Made by a program: the position numbers and the translations under genes
Shown: piece by piece, positions 55,101 to 64,000 of the stretch
Numbering within the stretch: the first letter of the stretch is position 1
How the letters are laid out: the number at the start of each line of letters is the position of its first letter
The notes under the pieces: generated by a model
Told to the model about the DNA's origin: nothing
The model's database searches: none
The model's input: the letters and a program-made list of their open reading frames with translations, nothing else
Assembly: GCF_044704955.1 (NCBI RefSeq)
Contig: NC_091980.1
Location: 50,964,001-51,028,000 of the forward strand
Direction of reading: 5' to 3'
From: Pristiophorus japonicus
Taxonomy: Eukaryota
DNA: 64,000 nt

Positions 55101-57000
55101 ATAGCGCAACCAAGTTTCACTCTTCCTTCAGATGGGCTACTGTGAACATGCTTCTGTCACTGGCAGCCCTAAGGACAATCCTCTTCAGTCAAATGCAAAC
55201 AACCATACAAATTTGATGTCTTATTATTGTGTACCTACTGTGTACATAGATGTCCTATGTTCTCAGAATCCGGTGTTTCTGCATTAGGTCTGGAGTTCGC
55301 CCTCCTACGATGTCTCTCAAGTGTGGCTTGCTGCGACACACTTGTACCCGCAGCCTCAGCCGTCACACCGAGAAAACTCCTCTCGTTTGATTCACTCTTG
55401 AAAGGACTTGGAATCCTCATGGGGTTTAGCACCTCCAAGTCCAGGTTAATAATCTCATCATCTATGACTTGCTGCCCATCATTCTCCTGAGTTGGAATAT
55501 CTGATGTGCCATTTTCTTGAACATTCTCTCCTTCAACTTCAGGTGCACTTTCTGTCTCCTCCTGATGCTCAACCTCTGCGAAACAAAAGATAGATGCTTG
55601 GTTAGCAGCATTGAGGAAGGAGAAGTGTAGGAAGCACACACAGTACGTAACATTTAGCCAACCCAGACTATGCAATTTGCAGGGCTTACCCTTGAATGGA
55701 AAACTGGGCCCTGCTTCCGCGTTGATTGTTGGTCATCTTCTGTGTCATTTAATCATTGATGCTATCCTCTGCTCTATGGCTGTTAGTTGCAGCCTATTTG
55801 GCGGACCTCCTCCATTTATGACCATTCTCGGTTGATCGATGACACCATCTTCTGCAAAGATGAAAATGGAACTTTTTAAGAGAGGGTCCTTCTGAACACA
55901 CATGCACACATTTACATAAGAACATAAGAAATAGGAACAGGAGTAGGCCATACTGCCCCTCGAGCCTGCTCCGCCATTCAATAAGATGACTGATTTGATC
56001 ATGGACTCAGCTTCACTTCCCCGCCCGCTCCCCATAACCCCTTATCCACTTATCATTTAAGAAACTGTCTATTTCTGTCTTAAATTTATTCAATGTCCCA
56101 GCTTCCACAGCTCTCTGAGGGAGCGAATTCCACACATTTACAACCCTCAGAGAAGAAATTTCTCCTCATCTCTCTTTTAAATGGGCAGCCCTTTATTCTA
56201 AGATCGTGACCTCTAGTTCTAATCTCCCCCATCAGTGGAAACGTCCTCTCTGCATCCACCTTGTCGAGCCCCCTGATAATCTTATACATTTCGATAAGAT
56301 CACCTCTCATTCTTCTGAATTCCAATGAGTAGAGGCCCAACCTACTCAACCTTTCCTCATAAGTCAACCCCCTCATTCCCGAAATCAACCTAGTGAACCT
56401 TCTCTGAACTGCCTCCAAAGCAAGTATATCCTTTCGTAAATATGGAAACCAAAACTGCACGCAATAAAGATGTTATTGCAGTGAATAAGTATACATAAAC
56501 TTACATTATATTTTAAAGCCCAAATAAATGTATTACTTACAGTCACTGCTTGTCCGAGGTCCTGCCACTTCTTTTTCAGCTGCGCACCAGTTCTCGGGGT
56601 CATGGACATTCCATTAAACTCGACTGCAACCTGGTCCCAAACTTTTGCGAGTGCAGACGGTTTAAGCTTATTTTTACTGAAGCTTCCCTTGTTCTCGAAC
56701 TCCCCATCTACTCTCGATTAAGTTTAGCAGGGGTTCAATTTCTTCCACAAGAAATCTCTTCATCCTTACGGTTTCCCCTTCTCTGTCTCTGGCCCTTTCG
56801 CCTTCTCTGCGCCCTTCCATTGCAGCCATCTCGTGATCAGAGCTGTATTTCCTACCTGCAAATCCACCTCTGTCACCAATGGATTCTCAATGGTGGTCCA
56901 CACAGTCCCCACACGTGCTGTTTTTTTAAAAATTCTTTGTACTGCACATGCGCAGTGGGTTTAAAATTTAAAAAAAAATTTTTGCACCTGCACGGCGCCC
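52195..57000 (-). mobile_element. Harbinger-like element with a decayed spliced Myb/SANT gene, interrupted by CR1 fragments (53190-53287, 54060-54683, 55913-56462) and a minisatellite
   Basis: PRTGAQLKKKWQDL...VT|gtaag at ~56540-56609, NGGGPPNRLQLTAIEQRIASMI at ~55750-55830, and an acidic exon at ~55240-55575. Boundaries approximate. Confidence 0.62.
54739..55017. repeat. Minisatellite, ~10 copies of a ~29-30 bp unit (TATGATATTAACACCYRTGAGTTCTAGTD)
   Basis: Direct tandem copies with two degenerate central units and no unique spacers. Confidence 0.9.
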
Positions 57001-57880
57001 TGTAAGTGATTTTGCCCCTGGTGATTTTGAATCATCCCTCTTAACAATAGTTCTAGACACTGGAATTATAGTCGTGAACAATAATATACAGTCATAGATA
57101 GATCTTCTCAGTCTTACCATCTCAATGCTTTTATTCAAGTTAAAACATACCTGCACCCAGTAAAAAAACACTCTGGTAGTGTAATACAAGCAAACACAGT
57201 ACAACACACAGTCTGGCCTGTCTAAATGACCCCTAACACTAAGTATCTATGTCTAAACCACCCCTGCTCAGATTCAAAATTGCACCACTGAAATCTATCC
57301 AACAGAATGTGTGTATGCTTATGATCCTTGCAAAAACCTCCCAACTAAAACCCCTAAGGCTTGGTTGGGACACACGACACCCTTTCACACTATGCAGTGG
57401 TTTAAAGATGCGTGGGCTGGGATAAATGCTCACCAATTAACCCTCTGGCTTACTCGCTGCTTCTCCCGATGAGGTGTATCTTGTGGGTCTTCAAGTCCAA
57501 TCTAAAGGTCAGCTTCCCAGTTGAAGTAGCAAGGCTCTCTGGTGTTTCTTCTCTCCACCCCAGATGGAGTGCTTAGTCCTTGTGCGTTGCAAGCAGGCAT
57601 AGAAGAGGGGAATAAGAGAGTGAGATGGCAGCCAAAATTGCTTCTCTTATACTTGCAAAAATGATAATTTTCGTACCAAAAATCCAACTGTCCTTCCCAC
57701 CTGAGGCTGTGCAACTGAAAAGCAAACTCAAGTCTGTGCCTGTTCCTTTGTCGTCTGTGCTGTACCTCGATGTGTGGCTCCGATGAGTTTGTGGTCAAAT
57801 AGCTTTCCTTTGTCTTTCGATGGCCTGAAACCCCGGCCACTTTACTTAATGTCTCACTGATGGGTTCCCATTCCATAACA
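57001..57880 (-). mobile_element. Possible solo LTR
   Basis: TGTAA...TAACA termini. On the minus strand a TATAA (~57650) precedes AATAAA (~57130). No TSD found. Confidence 0.4.
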
Positions 57881-58314
57881 AAAGGCGCCCATCAACCATG
57901 ATGTTCCTGCTTTCAGCCATTCTCATTCCCGCTCAGCTAATGTGTATTCAAGTTAAACATGTTTGGACCTGCCCCAGCCAGCCCTTCTGCTGTACAGAGA
58001 ATATAGTAGCAATGTCCAAAAAGTGTTTGCATTGAAATCTTATAGTCGCCCCTATGATATTTAAAGAATCCTTCTGGAATATTAAACGTCTGCTTGTGAA
58101 AACACGTCGTGGTCTCCAATCAACCCTATATACTTTACGCTTAAACACCCCGAATACATCCCTTAAAATACAACACGAAACACATTCATATAACATATTT
58201 ACAGAGAAAAACATTCAGGTTCAACCTTTAACCAAGGCCTCCCACCGACTTCAGAGCGCCTTGTTTTGCCTTTTGCAAGTCAGCCGCAACAAATACATCA
58301 CAATGAGAAACTGT

Positions 58315-61300
58315 GGGCTAGACTTTCCACTAGGTGGCTAAGGCCCCAAAAAATGGGCCTTATTCCAGCGATGTGTGATGTATCGCCCATGCTGATTGCC
58401 GGCATAAGGCCCATTATTTTTTTTGCAATTTTCCACTCGACTTTACCACAGCGATATCAAATGGGCGATCTGATTTCTCAGTGATCTCACGATCGCCCAA
58501 AAAAAGAGGAAGTGAAACGGAAGTCCAAAAAAAAAACTTCCCTAGCAACGATATTGTGCGCATGTGTGGGATGTTTTTTTTTGGATCGATTTTTTTTGCC
58601 GCGTTTGGAGAGTTCATGGGTCATCGCGCATGCTCAGAAGAAAAGGGAGGGTTGGTGAGAGCGGGAAAGAGGAGTTCATCGGTAGATTGTTATCAGTTAT
58701 CATTACAGATGTTTCAGCAATGGCCATGTCGAATCAAAATCCAAATGAAAGTGAAAGAAGGGCCAAAGCCTTCAGTGAGGAGGCTAATGAAGCACTAGTC
58801 CATGTTGTATCAACAAGGTGGGAGGATTTGACACGGGGTGGCCTTGGGAAACCTTCACCCCGTGCTTGCAGGCGGATCTGGCAGGAGATTGCCGATGTGG
58901 TGACATCGGCATCCCATGAGGTGCGGACGTCTGACCAGTGCCGCAAGAGGTGGAACAGCCTCCTGGCAGCTGCCAGAGTAAGTTTGATTCTACTATGTAT
59001 TTAAAACATATAAACAACTCGTGTTTATAAATTATTATGCATTATTTACTTGATGTTTATTAATTGCAAAAAAATTCCTCAATTTTAATTATTTATAATG
59101 TGAAGTTCAAAAACTACATTAAATGAAAAAAAATTACATTACCAATTACATTTATTCACCCTAACACTAAGTTGCATGTTATAATATAAAAAATTATTCA
59201 CATGCAGCCACCATAGTAAGTTGCACTGTAATATTTAAATAAATATTTTAAATATATTTAAAAGATATTTAAAAGTCATTTAAAATCATACGTACATATG
59301 TATTGTATACTTACTGTGTATAATTAGAATAATAATTATTCATATGCAATACGAGGTTACATAATAATGGAACATTTAAATCAGTCTTCAATGTTTATTG
59401 TCAGGAAAGGTAGCTTATGCTATGCAATGTTAAATTATCATTTGCAGAAAAATATAAGTTTAAACCATGTGGAGCAAAGGAGGATGGGTGGCGGCCCTGT
59501 GGCAGTGCACATTCTCAATCCATATGAGGAGCTTGCGGTGGCCTTCGTATTGCATATGAATAATTATTATTCTAATTATACACAGTAAGTATACAATACA
59601 TATGTACGTATGATTTTAAATGACCTTTAAATATCTTTTAAATATATTTTAAATATTACAATTTAAAAAAAATATTAATATATTTAAATATTACAATGCA
59701 ACTTACTATGGTGGCTGCATGTGAATGAAAGCGGTTACGACGCGTGGCATGGCTGAGCCCACCCTTGAGCCTGGTGAGTAATGCGGAATGTGCAAATTAT
59801 CAAACATTACTAATAACATACGCGAAATGTCGTAGTTACGCATTTGTTATGCAATTACAATTCATTAGTTCAGATGTAGTCTGATCTATGAGTGAGGTCA
59901 TGTTAACGCTGATGAACCCTTGTGCATTTGTGGTTTTGCAAAGTATTGCAATGTTTTGCATTACATTGGAATTATTGATATTGAAATATTGAAATATATT
60001 GATATGTATTGTTATGAGTTGTTTAGAAATTTCATTCATCTTTCTCGGGTGAAGTGTCCGTTGAACACTGTTCTGTGCCACTCGCAGAGCCTGGTTCTAA
60101 CAGCTCACAGGAGGGTGAGATGGCGGAGGAGGAGAAGGAGAATGATTTTTTGTGAGGGGAGTGAACAACCTATGGTTGAGATGGAAGAAGCACCGGGACT
60201 AAGTGGTGTGCAGGTGGCGATGCCAAGGCGTGTCATATTGCAAATGCTGACCCCACGGAGGTCCGGTCAGCGCGGCGAGCAATTGCCTATCTTGGAGGGC
60301 CAGACAGAGAGCTTGATTTCCCTGTGCAGGGAGACGGTCGCAATTGGTCGCGACCTTATCCAGGGGTTCGCAGGATTCTTTGCGAACTGGAGCCAGTTCT
60401 CTGCGAACTGGAGCCAGTTTCCAGCATCCTGGAGCGAGTTCTGCACGAACTTCTTGAACTGGTCTTCTGAGCAGTCACAGACTGCAAGGGAGACCTTGGA
60501 GGCTATTTGGCAGCAGACAGCCGTAAGCAATGCCCTACGGCATGCATTGCTGGCTGAACACGGCGCTGCACCTCACGATGTCGTGTCTGCTCACAGCGAG
60601 ATCCCTAACACGCAAGCGAGTACGGAGGACACAGGCTTCCGCTTCTGCTCTGTCACCTCTACCACGGCAGGAAATCTTGCTGTCCCAGTCTGCACGATGT
60701 CTTGGTGTTGGTCTGCGTAGACCAAAATGGGCGAGTGGGGTGTGAACATGGGGTGGAGCTGGACCTGGAGGGAAACGTGGCCGCAGGTAGGGAGGGGTGC
60801 GTTTTTTCACAGTTTGTTTAGTTGTTCTTGTTCCTGTTTTGTTAGTTTTGTTTGTTGTTATTGGTTAATTGTTAATTGCTAAGATTTTGTATTTGAGGGA
60901 AGGGTGGGTTGATGTGGGGGGGTGGCGGGGTTGGAGAGATAGTTTTTCAATTTTTATTTGCGTTTTTGTTAATAAAAAAAACACTTCTTTAATTCAATAA
61001 ATTGTGGTGTCTTCTCTCTTAGTTAGTTACCAACTATATAGATGTTATTCCATATCTGAGCATTCTATTAATATACAAGTACTTTAGTAACACCGTCTAA
61101 TAAATTCTATTATATAAAACCTATTCACTAAAAACAATAATACCTATCTGAAAAATTATAGCGCTCATCCTCATTAAATTCTATTATATAAAACCTAATG
61201 ATATAAAACCAAACGTAATGATAACTGTATGAAAACTTACAGCTCTCAGTAAATTATACTATATAAAACCTATTTAATAAAAATAACGTAATAATACCTA

Positions 61301-61677
61301 TTTATATTCCCTGTCTCAATATTCTGAGTACAACTACCTCTCTAATTAAATCACAACTAATCCTCTACCCTTCCATTGAAGTCCGTAGTGCCCATTTTCC
61401 TTCTCTGAGGTCCAGAAAAAGCAACTATTTCTCAGCACTGTTTTGGACCTTACATCGGCCCAGCGAAGTGCTAGTTAGGTGCTGAAACTTGGGATGGGCC
61501 TTGTGTGGGCTATAATTTCGGCGATCTTCTCGGCGATCAAAGTGGAAACTTAGGCACCTGTTTTTCGGGCGATATTTTGGGCCTAGTTTCCACTTTTTGT
61601 TCAAAATGGGCGATAGAAGTCCGTTTTGGGCCATATATGGGTCATAACTGGCCGATGTGAAGTGGAAAATCTAGCCC
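58315..61677 (+). mobile_element. Non-autonomous Harbinger-like transposon with both ends intact (3.36 kb)
   Basis: 17-bp TIRs GGGCTAGACTTTCCACT and AGTGGAAAATCTAGCCC (1 mismatch), perfect 3-bp TSD TGT (58312-58314 and 61678-61680), and a Myb/SANT gene inside. Confidence 0.85.
58720..60790 (+). pseudogene. Three-exon Myb/SANT-like DNA-binding protein gene of the Harbinger element (disrupted)
   Basis: Exon 1 58720-58977 RAKAFSEEANEALV...WQEIADVV...RTSDQCRKRWNSL|gtaagt. Exon 2 59448-59773 RRMGGGP...LNPYEE, interrupted. Exon 3 from 60088, acidic then helical, with frameshifts. Confidence 0.78.
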
Positions 61678-61845
61678 TGTATAATTACAAGAGCCTGCGA
61701 ACAAATCTGGACCCGTGGAGGAACTTCCACATTCAAACCAAGGTCCCACCAGGGCGTGGAATTTATCCCTTTAATTTCCTCCCCTATTTTCTGGTTTGTC
61801 TGTTCCAATGTAAAATAATGTTTCTGCAAGAGCTCAACGGCTTTT

Positions 61846-63112
61846 AAGAATATAAGAACATAAGAAATAGGAACATACGACCCCTCGAGCCTGCTCTGCC
61901 ATTTAATAAGATCATGGCTGATCTGATCATGGACTCAGCTCCACTTTCCCGCCCGCTCTCCATAACCCATTCTCTCCTTATCTATTTCTGTCTTAAATTT
62001 ATTCAATGTCCCAGAATCCACAACTCTCTGAGGCAGCAAATTCCACAGATTTACAAACCCTTAGAGAAGAAATTGCTCCTCATCTCAGTTTTAAATGAAC
62101 AGCCCCGTATTCTAAGATCATGCCCACTAGTTCTAGTCTCCCCCATCAGTGGAAACATCCTCTCTGCATCCACCTTGTCAAGCCCCCTCATAATCTTATA
62201 CGTTTCGATAAGATCACTTCTCATTCTTCTGAATTCCAATGAGTAGAGGCCCAACCTGTTATGTATGCAACCCTAGGTAACCTGTATCATACCGCCACCA
62301 GAGGACATATCTGTTGGAGTCCCAAGGGATCCCAGCATCCCTTGGGAACACTGTATATAAGCAGGCCTCCCACACTGTACCAGCACTCTGGAGTTTGAAT
62401 AAAGGAGCTAAGGTCACACTTACTCATGTCTACAGTACTCAGTTATTTTATTATGAGCTTAACACAACATACTCAACCTTTCCTCAAAAGTCAACTCCCT
62501 CATCCCTGGAATCACCACAGTGAACCTTCTCTGAACTGTCTCCAAAGCAAGTATATCCTTTTGTAAATATAGAAACCAGTACTGCACGCAGTATTCCAGG
62601 TGTGGCCTCACCAATACCTTATATAGCTGTAGCAAGACTTCCCCGCTTTTATACTCCATCCCCTTTGCAATAAAGGCCAAGATACCATTGACCTTCCTGA
62701 TCACTTGCTATACCTGCATACTAACCTTTGTGTTGCATGCACAAGTACCCCCAGGTCCCACTCGTACTGCAGCACTTTGCAATCTTTCTCCATTTAAATA
62801 ATAACTTCTTTGATTTTTTTTCTGCCAAAATGCATGACCTCACACTTTCCAACATTATACTCCATCTGCCAAATTTTTGTCCACTCACTTAGCTTGTCTA
62901 TGTCCTTTTGCAGATATTTTGTGTCCTCCTCACATTGCTTTTCCTCCCATCTTTGTATCGTCAGGAAACTTGGCTACGTTACACTCAGTATCTTCTTCCA
63001 AGTCGTTAATATAGATTATAAATAGTTGGGGTCCCAGCACTGATCCCTGTGGCACCCCACTAGTTACTGGTTGCCAACCAGAGAATTAACCATTGATCAC
63101 GACTCTCTGTTC
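61846..63112 (-). mobile_element. CR1 3' fragment interrupted by a solo LTR
   Basis: TAAGAACATAAGAAATAGG tail, RPHLEYCVQYW, LYSLEFRRMR. Confidence 0.9.
62257..62464 (+). mobile_element. Gypsy solo LTR (208 bp), related to the LTR at 38134-38341
   Basis: TGTTA...TAACA termini, TSD CAACC/CAACA, TATATAA then AATAAA, and a shared CCCAAGGGAT-N6-ATCCCTTGGG hairpin. Confidence 0.85.
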
Positions 63113-63142
63113 TCTTTATTTATTATTTATTATTTATTATTA

Positions 63143-64000
63143 TTATTTATTAATGTTGAGGTGTTTGAGCAGAAAAAGAATCTGATACCCAAACTGTGTG
63201 ATGTACTGCTGCAGATTATGGATTGTGTTGTTCACCGTGATGTGTACCGTGGATGGCTCTGGGATTGGAAGGATGTGCTCTTGGGCTACTTGAACTTTGG
63301 TGTGGGGTTTGAAACAGAAAGTTGTGTCAGTGACCGGACACCAAGTGTCGCGATGCACCCGATACTGGTCCACGCTCGTCGTGACGCAGTATGTCCCGTT
63401 TCCCGCATATGCTACCAGAGGTGGATTGTGGCTCCAGGCCATCACCTCCATGGTTCAAATTAATAGGCTCTGCACTCTCTGATTCAAACCTGCACTCTGG
63501 CTGATCGAACGAGTTCAAATGCTGGGGGCACAATATGATGTGTGCGCCCCTGCTCTGGCACCCCTTGAAGTCAGTGCCGGTCATGGCGTGCCCCCACTTT
63601 ATTGCAAATGGTGGGGCCCCATGGTACCGTACGTGCACCCCCTCCAGTAAGACGCCAATGTTCTCCACCCTGTATACCGGCGCTGGATGTGGTGTACTGC
63701 CCATCACCGGCATACGCAACACAATCCCCATAATCGAGTGGTTGACCCAACCGCAATCCACTAGGACTGGGTAGGCTTCGGAAGCTAAACCAAGATGACA
63801 CGGACTCATTGAATTATGATACGGGCTGAGCGCTGCGAGGTGCCGGTTGCTGACCCACGATGGGATGCGACCTTGCCGAGGTCCTCCAAATTACTGCGTT
63901 CCTCGCCTAGCAACCAGGCACCGTACAACACTTCATTCATGGCTGCCTGTGCCGAGGCATTCCTATCCTCCCGTATTAATTCAATAACTGTTTTAGCATC
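63143..64000 (-). pseudogene. Fragment of a viral-type class I fusion (F-like) envelope glycoprotein gene, frameshifted and running off the window edge
   Basis: Joined frames read ...LGEERSNLEDL/RQGRIPSWVS...IVLRMPV...VYRVENIGV...DFKGCQSRGAHIILCPQ...PEC/...VAYAGNGTYCVTT...CPVTDTTFCFKP...VNNTIHNLQQYI. Cys spacing and N-glycosylation sequons (NAS, NHS, NGT, NNT) fit an F-like ectodomain. Confidence 0.6.

What the first reader, a model, noticed from the sequence alone, without database searches (positions are those of the whole stretch)
63143..64000. F-like envelope glycoprotein fragment: probable endogenous lokiretrovirus-type or env-bearing LTR element
Seen: three overlapping minus-strand frames join, with two frameshifts, into ~285 aa. 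The order is an amphipathic helix, L..L..GRIP, a beta-rich stretch (VLRMPV, YRVENIG), a Cys-rich region (GC..RG..IILCP, GNGTYCVTT, C...TFCFKP) and a heptad-like end, with four N-X-S/T sequons. Established: lokiretroviruses carry env genes related to paramyxo/pneumovirus F proteins rather than classical retroviral TM. Inference: this is the distal env of such an element, with the rest to the right of the window. It is the only viral-envelope-like coding sequence here.
Basis: partly seen in the sequence, partly recalled or inferred. Interest (0 to 1): 0.72.

Follow-up and report, generated by a model that had tools for sequence, protein, structure and literature searches.

The report
Dead shark provirus, F-type envelope
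This is the rear half of the envelope gene of a dead, much-interrupted retrovirus copy in a likely shark genome; its relatives are predicted to fold like the fusion protein of measles- and RSV-type viruses, yet their polymerase resembles that of snakehead-type ordinary retroviruses rather than lokiretroviruses, so this envelope type is likely more widespread among retroviruses than the papers I read state.

Summary
Observation confirmed; interpretation half right. The three frames are the 3' half of env of a decayed LTR-gag-pol-env provirus of a multi-copy family (150 of 13,205 candidates scored, 59-84% identical). Env continues inside the window past a LINE and a DNA transposon to a 3' LTR at 57,001-58,044; gag-pol lies to the right. 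This copy has privately lost about 0.68 kb holding the furin site and fusion peptide. A model of another copy's natural open frame matches paramyxo/pneumovirus F (Foldseek E 3.6e-9; Z 13, 337 residues), so 'F-like' holds. 'Lokiretrovirus' does not: the family's RT has the canonical LPQG motif (24 of 24 published loki RTs have PFG) and the nearest named virus is snakehead retrovirus (SnRV), whose Env is detectably homologous. One clade with SnRV was not recovered, and no loki sequence could be put in my trees. Extras: tRNA-Arg primer site, a UGA-CUAG gag-pol junction (16 of 27 copies), env-less relatives with 94-99% identical LTRs. SnRV-type ERVs are known from elephant shark; an F fold for their Env was not found in ten paper searches. 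This scan reached the same reading three times before on other genomes.

The parts
63863..64000 (-). env piece A: end of the first heptad helix (HRA); frame break near 63,870
   Evidence: E 6e-11; corresponds to about residues 298-347 of the modelled copy P0004
63459..63878 (-). env piece B: beta-rich head domains (DIII/DI equivalents) and first Cys cluster; frame break near 63,457
   Evidence: E 2e-56; P0004 residues 342-480, pLDDT blocks 62-93
63146..63454 (-). env piece C: DII equivalent and linker towards the second heptad
   Evidence: E 1e-38; P0004 residues 482-567
61847..63145 (-). CR1-type LINE 3' fragment inserted into env, itself interrupted near 62,255-62,441
   Evidence: env of L023 jumps from 63,146 to 61,846; RVT_1 E 4.9e-6; tandem tail at 61,850-61,880; 'CR1' is recalled from the sequence, not from a library hit
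61684..61846 (-). env piece D: second heptad (HRB), WW motif, start of the transmembrane anchor
   Evidence: 91% DNA identity to L023; E 2e-16
58315..61683 (.). DNA transposon inserted into the env transmembrane segment: 17-bp terminal inverted repeats (16 of 17 complementary), 3-bp target duplication, Myb/SANT ORF; Harbinger-like (name recalled)
   Evidence: junction sequences against L023; Myb_DNA-bind_5 E 8.5e-9
58218..58314 (-). env piece E: end of the anchor and a short basic tail of about 20 residues, with one premature stop
58045..58060 (-). purine-rich tract directly before the 3' LTR
   Evidence: same sequence precedes the 3' LTR of copy L022+L021
57001..58044 (-). 3' LTR (1,044 bp, ends ...TTACA; first TG decayed). 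Its 5' partner, the primer site, gag, pol and the 5' end of env lie right of the window (G000:C4, window-frame positions 64,001-101,522)
   Evidence: 78% to the LTR of copy L022+L021; K2P distance 0.11 to the three pieces of the 5' LTR over 1,014 sites

Best explanation
The stretch is the rear half of the env gene of a dead endogenous provirus in a likely shark genome, from a multi-copy family whose polymerase is of the canonical retrovirus type and likely belongs with snakehead retrovirus (SnRV)-related ERVs, and whose envelope is predicted to have the paramyxo/pneumovirus F fold. Shown from sequence: order LTR, tRNA-Arg primer site, gag with one CCHC knuckle, in-frame TGA, protease-RT-tether-RNase H-integrase, env, purine tract, LTR; in other copies env reads signal peptide, about 200-residue Cys/Trp-rich N-terminal module, proline-rich hinge, F2-like segment, R-X-R-R site, hydrophobic fusion peptide, heptad A, beta domains, heptad B, anchor, short tail. 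Inferred mechanism of the ancestral virus: Gag-Pol made by occasional readthrough of UGA-CUAG; Env made as a trimeric precursor, cut by furin, receptor bound by the N-terminal module (placed as in coronavirus spike rather than inserted as in foamy Env), then F-type refolding into a six-helix bundle to fuse membranes. The family spread in the germ line; relatives that lack env have the most similar LTR pairs seen and likely went on copying inside cells. This copy does nothing now: furin site and fusion peptide deleted, two frame breaks in the finding, stops in the N-terminal part, four insertions.
For: Architecture. Fold: AlphaFold2 on the natural open frame P0004 with 54 rows, pLDDT mostly 80-96 over residues 131-200 and 321-540; Foldseek best PDB hit hPIV3 F E 3.6e-9, all 39 listed rows are paramyxo/pneumovirus F; VIA-align Z 13.0, 337 aligned, rmsd 19.1 to 1ztm_B and Z 12.6, 322 aligned, rmsd 6.6 to 8tvg_A; ESM Atlas features 0.90 to Baculo_F and Fusion_gly clusters (weak on its own). 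Furin site R-X-[KR]-R in 18 of 26 distinct places found by a fusion-peptide pattern. Pol: LPQG and QYVDD; 40-46% to frog pols over RT-RNase H and 35% to SnRV, the best named virus, 320 bits against 297 or less for all lower rows (P0023 matches the SnRV row, and L063 has SnRV's published length of 10,688 nt); two careful trees put it on the retrovirus side of a 100/100 split from Gypsy, outside the starred class I clade and outside foamy viruses. Env homologs occur in the same host groups as the pol homologs: sharks, skate, frogs, coelacanth. A 34-row env profile without SnRV finds SnRV Env at E 3.2e-6, 11.6 bits, best of 500 shuffles 1.8 bits; hhalign 86%, 284 columns. SnRV also has an in-frame gag-pol stop and a primer site starting TGGCGA. 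Primer site 18 of 18 to a host tRNA-Arg(TCG) in L042, 14 of 18 here.
Against: One clade of shark ERV + SnRV + frog/coelacanth pols was not recovered: they form an unresolved basal grade in both careful trees and had support 45 in the quick tree. No lokiretrovirus, Odin, ERV-L/S or class II sequence is in the trees, so the exclusion of loki rests on motifs and a by-eye identity count. The window copy's own motif is decayed (LPEG, YVND). No Pfam Fusion_gly or Baculo_F hit for any family member and no F protein in sequence searches of PDB. A shark-only profile missed SnRV Env entirely. The fold was predicted for another copy (76-86% identical to the window's pieces), not for the window's own. No target-site duplication is recognisable around this provirus. 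Readthrough, cleavage, trimer, receptor role are untested.
Confidence: 0.84

Rival explanations
1. It is a lokiretrovirus, the first in cartilaginous fish, with a divergent RT.
For: F-like Env, dual RNase H, LTR-gag-pol-env. Loki-Xtr Env shares motifs by eye with this env (PGP.SG.ML at the start of the F2-like part, DL..GRIP). Basal position on the retrovirus side of trees that hold no loki rows. RT identity to Loki-Lch, about 37% by eye, is not far below class I values.
Against: 24 of 24 loki RTs have PFG and a W-P-x motif where this family, SnRV and the frog pols have LPQG and PTVA/PVV; SnRV is closer (45%). Loki-Xtr Env has no N-terminal module. Five short motifs of the frog and coelacanth env homologs were absent from the held part of the loki supplement. 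0 of 6 chondrichthyan genomes had loki.
Confidence: 0.06
2. It is a separate, unnamed basal lineage of canonical retroviruses (sharks, frogs, coelacanth), only a neighbour of SnRV, with F-type Env; 'SnRV-like' is a grade, not a clade.
For: Trees give a grade, with SnRV joining foamy + class I at 88/88 in the RT-tether tree. Env identity to SnRV only about 20%; SnRV Env is 1,134 aa in frame with a long tail and accessory ORFs, here about 750 aa with a short tail; different stop codon context.
Against: Shared readthrough junction, Arg-type primer site, single zinc knuckle and detectable Env homology; deep RT nodes are generally weak. This rival changes the label, not the mechanism.
Confidence: 0.3
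3. The family is a recombinant: an SnRV-type gag-pol that captured its F-like env from a lokiretrovirus or a negative-strand RNA virus in fish, so it says nothing about the ancestral retroviral envelope.
For: Env swapping is common in anamniote retroviruses (10.1101/2021.11.23.469661, parts 1-2 read). Best structural hits in BFVD are arthropod and fish negative-strand virus glycoproteins (E 1e-12 to 1e-9), ahead of retroviral Env.
Against: Homologous env goes with related pol across sharks, frogs, coelacanth and SnRV, so any capture was ancient; foamy, WEHV1 and WDSV Env also match the model (E 6e-5, 1.1e-7, 1.1e-3).
Confidence: 0.25
4. It is a foamy-like ERV or a stand-alone endogenous paramyxovirus F gene, or a host gene.
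For: Foamy-like ERVs exist in cartilaginous fish (reference title seen); integrase best PDB hit is PFV integrase; some database gene models fuse such env pieces to host genes.
Against: Foamy RTs form a separate starred clade; Gag has a CCHC knuckle; env is embedded between pol and an LTR in many copies; frame breaks and stops everywhere.
Confidence: 0.02

Closest known systems
Snakehead retrovirus (SnRV) and the SnRV clade of ERVs of fish, amphibians, reptiles and birds (PMC12193657, passages), including CmiERV lineage I of elephant shark (PMC4422223, part 1 of 2 read)
   Same: Nearest named RT (45%); in-frame gag-pol stop; one zinc knuckle; primer site starting TGGCGA; homologous Env core with an N-terminal extension before the F2-like segment.
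   Different: UGA-CUAG instead of UAG-GGC; Env about 750 aa with a tail of about 20 residues against 1,134 aa in frame and a 136-residue tail; no accessory ORFs noticed; one clade with SnRV not shown. No passage I read calls SnRV-type Env F-like.
Lokiretroviruses (PMC7947760, parts 1-3 of 4 and supplement parts 8, 67, 70, 71; PMC9040795, part 1 of 4)
   Same: LTR-gag-pol-env, tether plus RNase H, Env of the F family with RXKR-type site, fusion peptide, coiled coil and anchor; motifs shared by eye with Loki-Xtr Env.
   Different: RT motifs of canonical retroviruses; extra N-terminal module in Env; no PF00523 hit at sequence level; host class in which none was found (0 of 6 genomes).
Foamy virus Env, subclass Ib fusion proteins (PMC11468914, listing and passages)
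   Same: F-like core in a member of Retroviridae; feline foamy Env matches the model at E 6e-5.
   Different: Foamy receptor-binding domain is inserted between the two subunits; here the extra module is N-terminal, as the paper describes for coronavirus spike. RT outside the foamy clade; Gag has a zinc knuckle.
Paramyxo/pneumovirus F, baculovirus F and errantivirus F-type ENV (PMC12583693 section 9; PMC13524379 passages)
   Same: Predicted core fold and order of elements.
   Different: 8-14% identity; carried by a vertebrate retrovirus with dual RNase H, not by a negative-strand virus or a Ty3/gypsy element.
UGACUA(G) readthrough signals of alphaviruses and human genes (PMC13517186, passages)
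   Same: The heptamer UGACUAG at an in-frame stop upstream of the polymerase.
   Different: Retroviral contexts listed there are UAGGGA, UAGGGC, UGAAGA, UGACGA, UGAAGU; UGACUAG in a retrovirus was not among the passages seen.

Membership tests
Lokiretrovirus | LTR-gag-pol-env-LTR with protease, RT, tether, RNase H, integrase | tested here: met
   shared with all retroviruses, so not diagnostic
Lokiretrovirus | Env related to paramyxo/pneumovirus F, with RXKR-type site, fusion peptide, coiled coil, anchor | tested here: met
   by predicted fold of another copy and motifs; the sequence-level PF00523 hit reported for loki Env is absent here
Lokiretrovirus | RT sequence of loki type (PFG motif, W-P-x motif; closer to loki RTs than to canonical ones) | tested here: not met
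   24 of 24 loki RTs PFG; family has LPQG; 45% to SnRV against about 37% to Loki-Lch (count by eye)
Lokiretrovirus | Placement inside the loki clade in an RT tree with loki references | not testable with these tools
   no loki RT was among the proteins fetched (motif tally); trees hold none
Lokiretrovirus | Integrase closest to CGIN1/NYNRIN; RNase H grouping with foamy viruses | not tested
   'NYNRIN-like' names on frog relatives are also carried by snake and bird class I-type pols, so they decide nothing
SnRV clade | Pol forms one clade with SnRV | tested here: inconclusive
   nearest named virus; unresolved basal grade; support 45
SnRV clade | gag and pol in one frame, separated by a stop codon | tested here: met
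   TGA at the junction in 25 of 27 loci, TGACTAG in 16 of 27; SnRV TAG-GGC
SnRV clade | One CCHC zinc knuckle in Gag | tested here: met
   SnRV has one (PMC2717909 passage)
SnRV clade | Env homologous to SnRV Env | tested here: met
   (E 3e-6 to 5e-6, above 500 shuffles); missed by the shark-only profile; blastp E 0.004
SnRV (the virus itself) | Long Env tail (136 residues) and accessory ORFs | tested here: not met
   tail about 20 residues; accessory ORFs were not searched for systematically
Spumaretrovirinae / foamy-like ERVs | RT in the foamy clade; Gag without zinc knuckle; receptor domain inserted between the fusion subunits | tested here: not met
   only three mammalian-type foamy RTs were in the trees, no fish foamy-like ERV
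Class I ERVs (gamma/epsilon) with gamma-type Env | RT in the class I clade; TM with immunosuppressive domain and CX6CC | tested here: not met
   outside the starred class I clade (100/98, 100/99); no TLV_coat or other retroviral Env Pfam hit
Subclass Ib (F-type) class I fusion proteins | F2/F1 core with cleavage site, fusion peptide, HRA, three beta domains, HRB, anchor | tested here: met
   model residues 143-549 align with F residues about 26-435; holds for the family, this copy lacks the cleavage site and fusion peptide
Immunoglobulin-like domain (N-terminal module of Env) | Ig fold | tested here: inconclusive
   pattern C..W..DxGxYxC by eye; Ig_3 E 0.58 for P0011, V-set E 0.045 for P0156, a UniRef name for P0138; PDB profile search blank, hhalign to SnRV N-terminus 2%; model pLDDT under 50 there

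The most novel reading that the evidence does not exclude
The F-type fusogen is the ancestral envelope of retroviruses: kept by lokiretroviruses, foamy viruses, SnRV and its shark, frog and coelacanth relatives and by walleye epsilonretroviruses, and only later replaced by gamma- and beta-type Env; in the SnRV-type branch it carries exchangeable, partly Ig-like receptor modules at its N-terminus, as coronavirus spike does, and in this family Pol is made through an alphavirus-style UGA-CUAG readthrough.
Probability: 0.4. Interest if true: 0.8.

Novelty: new variant of a known kind. Interest (0 to 1): 0.56.

Why it matters
The locus itself is a dead fossil. The family matters because it uncouples F-like Env from lokiretroviruses: a canonical-type polymerase travels with an F-type envelope in sharks, skates, frogs, coelacanth and in the living virus SnRV, and the same model matches walleye epsilonretrovirus and foamy Env. 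PMC7947760 left four scenarios open for the origin of retroviral Env; these sequences fill the gap between loki and foamy viruses and make the choice testable by comparing Env-core and Pol trees. SnRV has an infectious clone (PMC12193657), so its Env structure can be solved. Practical point for annotation: an F-like env in a vertebrate genome does not identify a lokiretrovirus. The conserved UGA-CUAG junction adds a readthrough context not listed for retroviruses in the review passages read.

Tried and rejected
Pfam scans of the window pieces, of longer natural frames, of SnRV Env and of 21 homologs gave no fusion-protein family. Sequence and profile searches of PDB gave nothing for env. AlphaFold2 with 10 close rows failed. 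A shark-only env profile did not detect SnRV Env: the best eight scores were all shuffles. ESM Atlas on the full-length bamboo shark homolog gave only an unnamed cluster at 0.82. The idea that the 0.68-kb deletion marks a non-autonomous subfamily or a spliced transcript was dropped: of 40 scored places only this copy spans the junction (457 candidates, so a rare shared form is not excluded). A stimulatory RNA structure in the 100 nt after the gag stop was not supported: z from +1.6 to -2.5 in 9 copies, only 1 of 9 below -2. An Ig fold for the N-terminal module stays a lead. The first RT tree used all 121 rows over 200 aa with a quick search; the careful trees used 63 rows (62 of those 121 plus the window provirus' longest unbroken RT piece) and 35 rows, chosen by hand to keep each lineage. 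No SnRV entry appeared among the 50 listed BFVD rows, which is no evidence either way. Dating was not pressed: LTR distance 0.11 gives about 25 million years at the mammalian rate and about 250 at the tenfold lower rate assumed in PMC4422223, and CpG decay inflates it. Expression in sequencing runs and a complex prediction were not attempted. Not seen, and able to pre-empt the novelty claim: Calcraft 2024, Nino Barreat and Katzourakis 2024, Hart 1996, Hayward 2015, Xu 2018 (listing only), the cartilaginous-fish foamy paper, Repbase entries, and all bioRxiv supplements; the loki supplement was cut at 72 parts, before its RNase H and integrase alignments.

Full report
1. Observation. The finding is real. 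The middle piece finds 150 of 150 scored places in the own genome at 59-84% identity (13,205 candidates; candidates are not copy numbers). The genome has 5.9 billion bases and the closest named homologs come from sharks and a skate, so the host is likely a shark (inference).

2. Anatomy of the locus. Mapping against other copies (positions beyond 64,000 are counted on in the window's frame along G000:C4) gives one provirus on the minus strand. The 5' LTR runs from 101,522 to 69,313 in three pieces, split by a 26-kb nested ERV block (75,029-101,365) and a Gypsy-type element (69,491-74,077). A primer site follows five bases later; then gag (about 69,250-68,450, CCHC knuckle E 0.0013), an in-frame TGA, pol (about 68,380-64,530; RVT_1 E 2.8e-21, tether, RNase H), and env from a signal peptide near 64,480. 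At about 64,025 some 0.68 kb is missing compared with L017, L023, L024 and L049: the end of the N-terminal module, the proline-rich hinge, the F2-like segment, the furin site, the fusion peptide and the first half of heptad A. Only this copy spans that junction among 40 scored places. The two LTRs differ by K2P 0.11 over 1,014 sites. No target duplication is recognisable here; one other copy shows a 4-bp one with a mismatch. The copy is dead: deletion, two frame breaks in the finding, three stops in the N-terminal env, one in the tail, many breaks in gag and pol. Among the 150 + 150 env places scored the longest open frames were 645-709 aa, and the long ones I translated are all partial or change frame.

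3. What the envelope is. Other copies keep the middle of env: R-X-[KR]-R followed by a hydrophobic, Gly/Ala/Thr-rich peptide in 18 of 26 distinct places, and a 19-residue anchor (mean hydropathy 2.45). Sequence libraries do not recognise it. A profile of 18 natural frames run over 1.84 billion representatives gave 37 hits; the 10 + 4 that I looked up are from Mustelus, Chiloscyllium, Heterodontus, Scyliorhinus, Pristiophorus, Pelodytes, Xenopus and Latimeria, one unnamed. With 54 rows AlphaFold2 modelled the natural open frame P0004, which is 76-86% identical to the window's pieces, at pLDDT mostly 80-96 in the core and under 50 in residues 1-128 and 209-251. Foldseek returns paramyxo- and pneumovirus F in all 39 listed PDB rows, best E 3.6e-9. 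VIA-align gives Z 13.0, 337 residues, rmsd 19.1 (hPIV3 F) and Z 12.6, 322 residues, rmsd 6.6 (Langya F head); the large rmsd values go with long helices placed differently, and post-fusion forms rank first. In BFVD the best rows are lispi/arli-type and fish filovirus-named glycoproteins, then paramyxovirus F, baculovirus F, WEHV1 Env (E 1.1e-7), feline foamy Env (6e-5) and WDSV Env (1.1e-3). 'F-like' is therefore supported as a prediction.

4. What the virus is. A natural 1,110-aa pol frame of the family (P0012, 79% identical to this copy's longest unbroken RT piece) has protease, RT, tether, RNase H and integrase. Its RT-RNase H finds one close unnamed relative (83%), frog pols at 40-46%, a coelacanth pol at 42%, then SnRV at 35% and 320 bits, ahead of all class I, foamy and Gypsy rows. 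Over RT alone: frogs and coelacanth 44-53%, SnRV 45%, class I-type 31-41%, foamy 33-35%, Gypsy 28-34%. All 24 lokiretrovirus RTs in dataset S3 of PMC7947760 have PFG where this family, SnRV, foamy and class I/II viruses have PQG; Gypsy rows have mostly PFG/PMG/PLG, so PQG is likely the derived state of canonical retroviruses (inference). My by-eye count against Loki-Lch is about 97 of 262 (37%). Two careful trees put the family on the retrovirus side (100/100), outside class I (100/98; 100/99) and foamy viruses, in an unresolved grade with SnRV and the frog and coelacanth pols. They hold no loki, Odin, ERV-L/S or class II row, so they neither prove an SnRV clade nor formally exclude loki. Independent links to SnRV: an in-frame gag-pol stop, one zinc knuckle, a primer site starting TGGCGA (that SnRV's is for tRNA-Arg is recalled), and Env homology: a 34-row profile without SnRV scores SnRV Env at 11.6 bits, E 3.2e-6, against at most 1.8 bits for 500 shuffles, hhalign 86% over 284 columns, while a shark-only profile missed it. 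In this family the primer site matches a host tRNA-Arg(TCG) at 18 of 18 in L042 and 14 of 18 here.

5. How it most likely worked. Shown: gene order, motifs, junctions. Inferred: genomic RNA translated into Gag, and at a low rate through UGA-CUAG into Gag-Pol (TGA at the junction in 25 of 27 loci, TGACTAG in 16 of 27, with differing flanks; UGACUAG supports readthrough in human genes and UGACUA in alphaviruses according to PMC13517186, passages; no downstream structure detected). Reverse transcription primed by tRNA-Arg. Env cleaved by furin, receptor bound by the N-terminal module, fusion by F-type refolding (established for F proteins, untested here). Env-less relatives with near-identical LTRs suggest later intracellular spread (biased sampling).

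6. Comparison with what is known. SnRV-related ERVs in cartilaginous fish are known (CmiERV lineage I; PMC4422223, part 1 of 2; PMC4977317 and PMC12193657, passages). F-like Env is in print for lokiretroviruses (PMC7947760, parts 1-3 and four supplement parts; PMC9040795, part 1) and foamy viruses (PMC11468914, passages). A 2026 paper still contrasts canonical retroviral Env with the F-like Env of lokiretroviruses (PMC13524379, passages); Viro3D's F-seeded survey names Metaviridae among reverse-transcribing viruses and expects more in Retroviridae (PMC12583693, section 9); the anamniote Env survey looked only for gamma- and beta-type Env (10.1101/2021.11.23.469661, parts 1-2 of 6). PMC4299795 leaves SnRV-related ERVs unclassified (passages); PMC2717909, PMC12440569, PMC13709493 and 10.1101/2024.03.17.585361 (passages) add nothing on the fold. 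Ten searches found no statement that SnRV-type Env is F-like; the library lacks most subscription papers, and several key papers and bioRxiv supplements were not seen. It works like a lokiretrovirus at the entry step and is not one by its RT.

7. Earlier notes of this scan. After my reading was formed, one search showed three follow-ups on other genomes with the same conclusion (e1-9837919, e1-7806250, e1-7805280). They are AI notes and are not counted as evidence. A search by sequence found no look-alike note, and none of the eight notes shown for this genome concerns this family.

8. Verdict. Real feature, dead copy, new variant of a known kind: an SnRV-related (or neighbouring basal) shark ERV with a predicted F-type envelope and a UGA-CUAG gag-pol junction. 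Confidence 0.84 in the overall reading, lower (about 0.6) that 'SnRV clade' is a true clade including it. Interest 0.56: nothing functional at this locus, but the family bears directly on the open question of which envelope the first retroviruses had.

Noticed in passing
G000:C4, window-frame positions 75,029-101,365 (L014, L064, L065): A 26-kb block nested in the 5' LTR of this provirus, bounded by 0.68-kb direct repeats (91%), holds remnants of a second ERV family: two env remnants (about 77,600-76,000 and 90,250-88,300) only 24-26% identical to this family but scoring with its profile, and pol remnants with LLQYVDDIL, scoring best with P0021. A second F-type lineage in the same genome.
   Followed up: partly
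L027-L042: 16 of 16 loci chosen for long pol frames had no env hit in the 10 kb held; in 9 both LTRs are in view and 94.5-98.5% identical, against 83-94% for the repeat pairs around env-bearing copies (one verified as LTRs besides this one). Fits spread after env loss, but the two sets were picked differently.
   Followed up: partly
gag-pol junction, L013 about 5,400 and 26 other loci: TGACTAG is kept in 16 of 27 loci across subfamilies whose flanking bases differ on both sides.
   Followed up: partly
P0138 (Chiloscyllium punctatum), P0148 (Pelodytes ibericus), P0156 (unnamed): Uninterrupted 723-749 aa env-like ORFs of the same F-type stock with differing N-terminal modules, one with a weak V-set hit; candidates for young proviruses or co-opted genes.
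   Followed up: no
BFVD rows 18 and 45: Walleye epidermal hyperplasia virus 1 Env (E 1.1e-7) and walleye dermal sarcoma virus Env (E 1.1e-3) match the F-type model; one paper search found nothing on this.
   Followed up: no
G000:C4, window-frame positions 69,491-74,077 (L013, L014): A Gypsy-type LTR element with 0.2-kb LTRs (92%) inserted into the 5' LTR of the provirus; similar short repeats lie at 62,255-62,441 inside the LINE and at about 77,955.
   Followed up: partly
window 56,385-56,717: A second Myb/SANT ORF remnant (E 2.7e-7) just beyond the 3' LTR; the provirus may sit inside an older DNA transposon.
   Followed up: no
P0009, P0136, P0008: Database gene models in sawshark and skate fuse env pieces of this family to Niban-like and cadherin-like sequences or skip its middle; likely annotation artefacts, not checked.
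   Followed up: no
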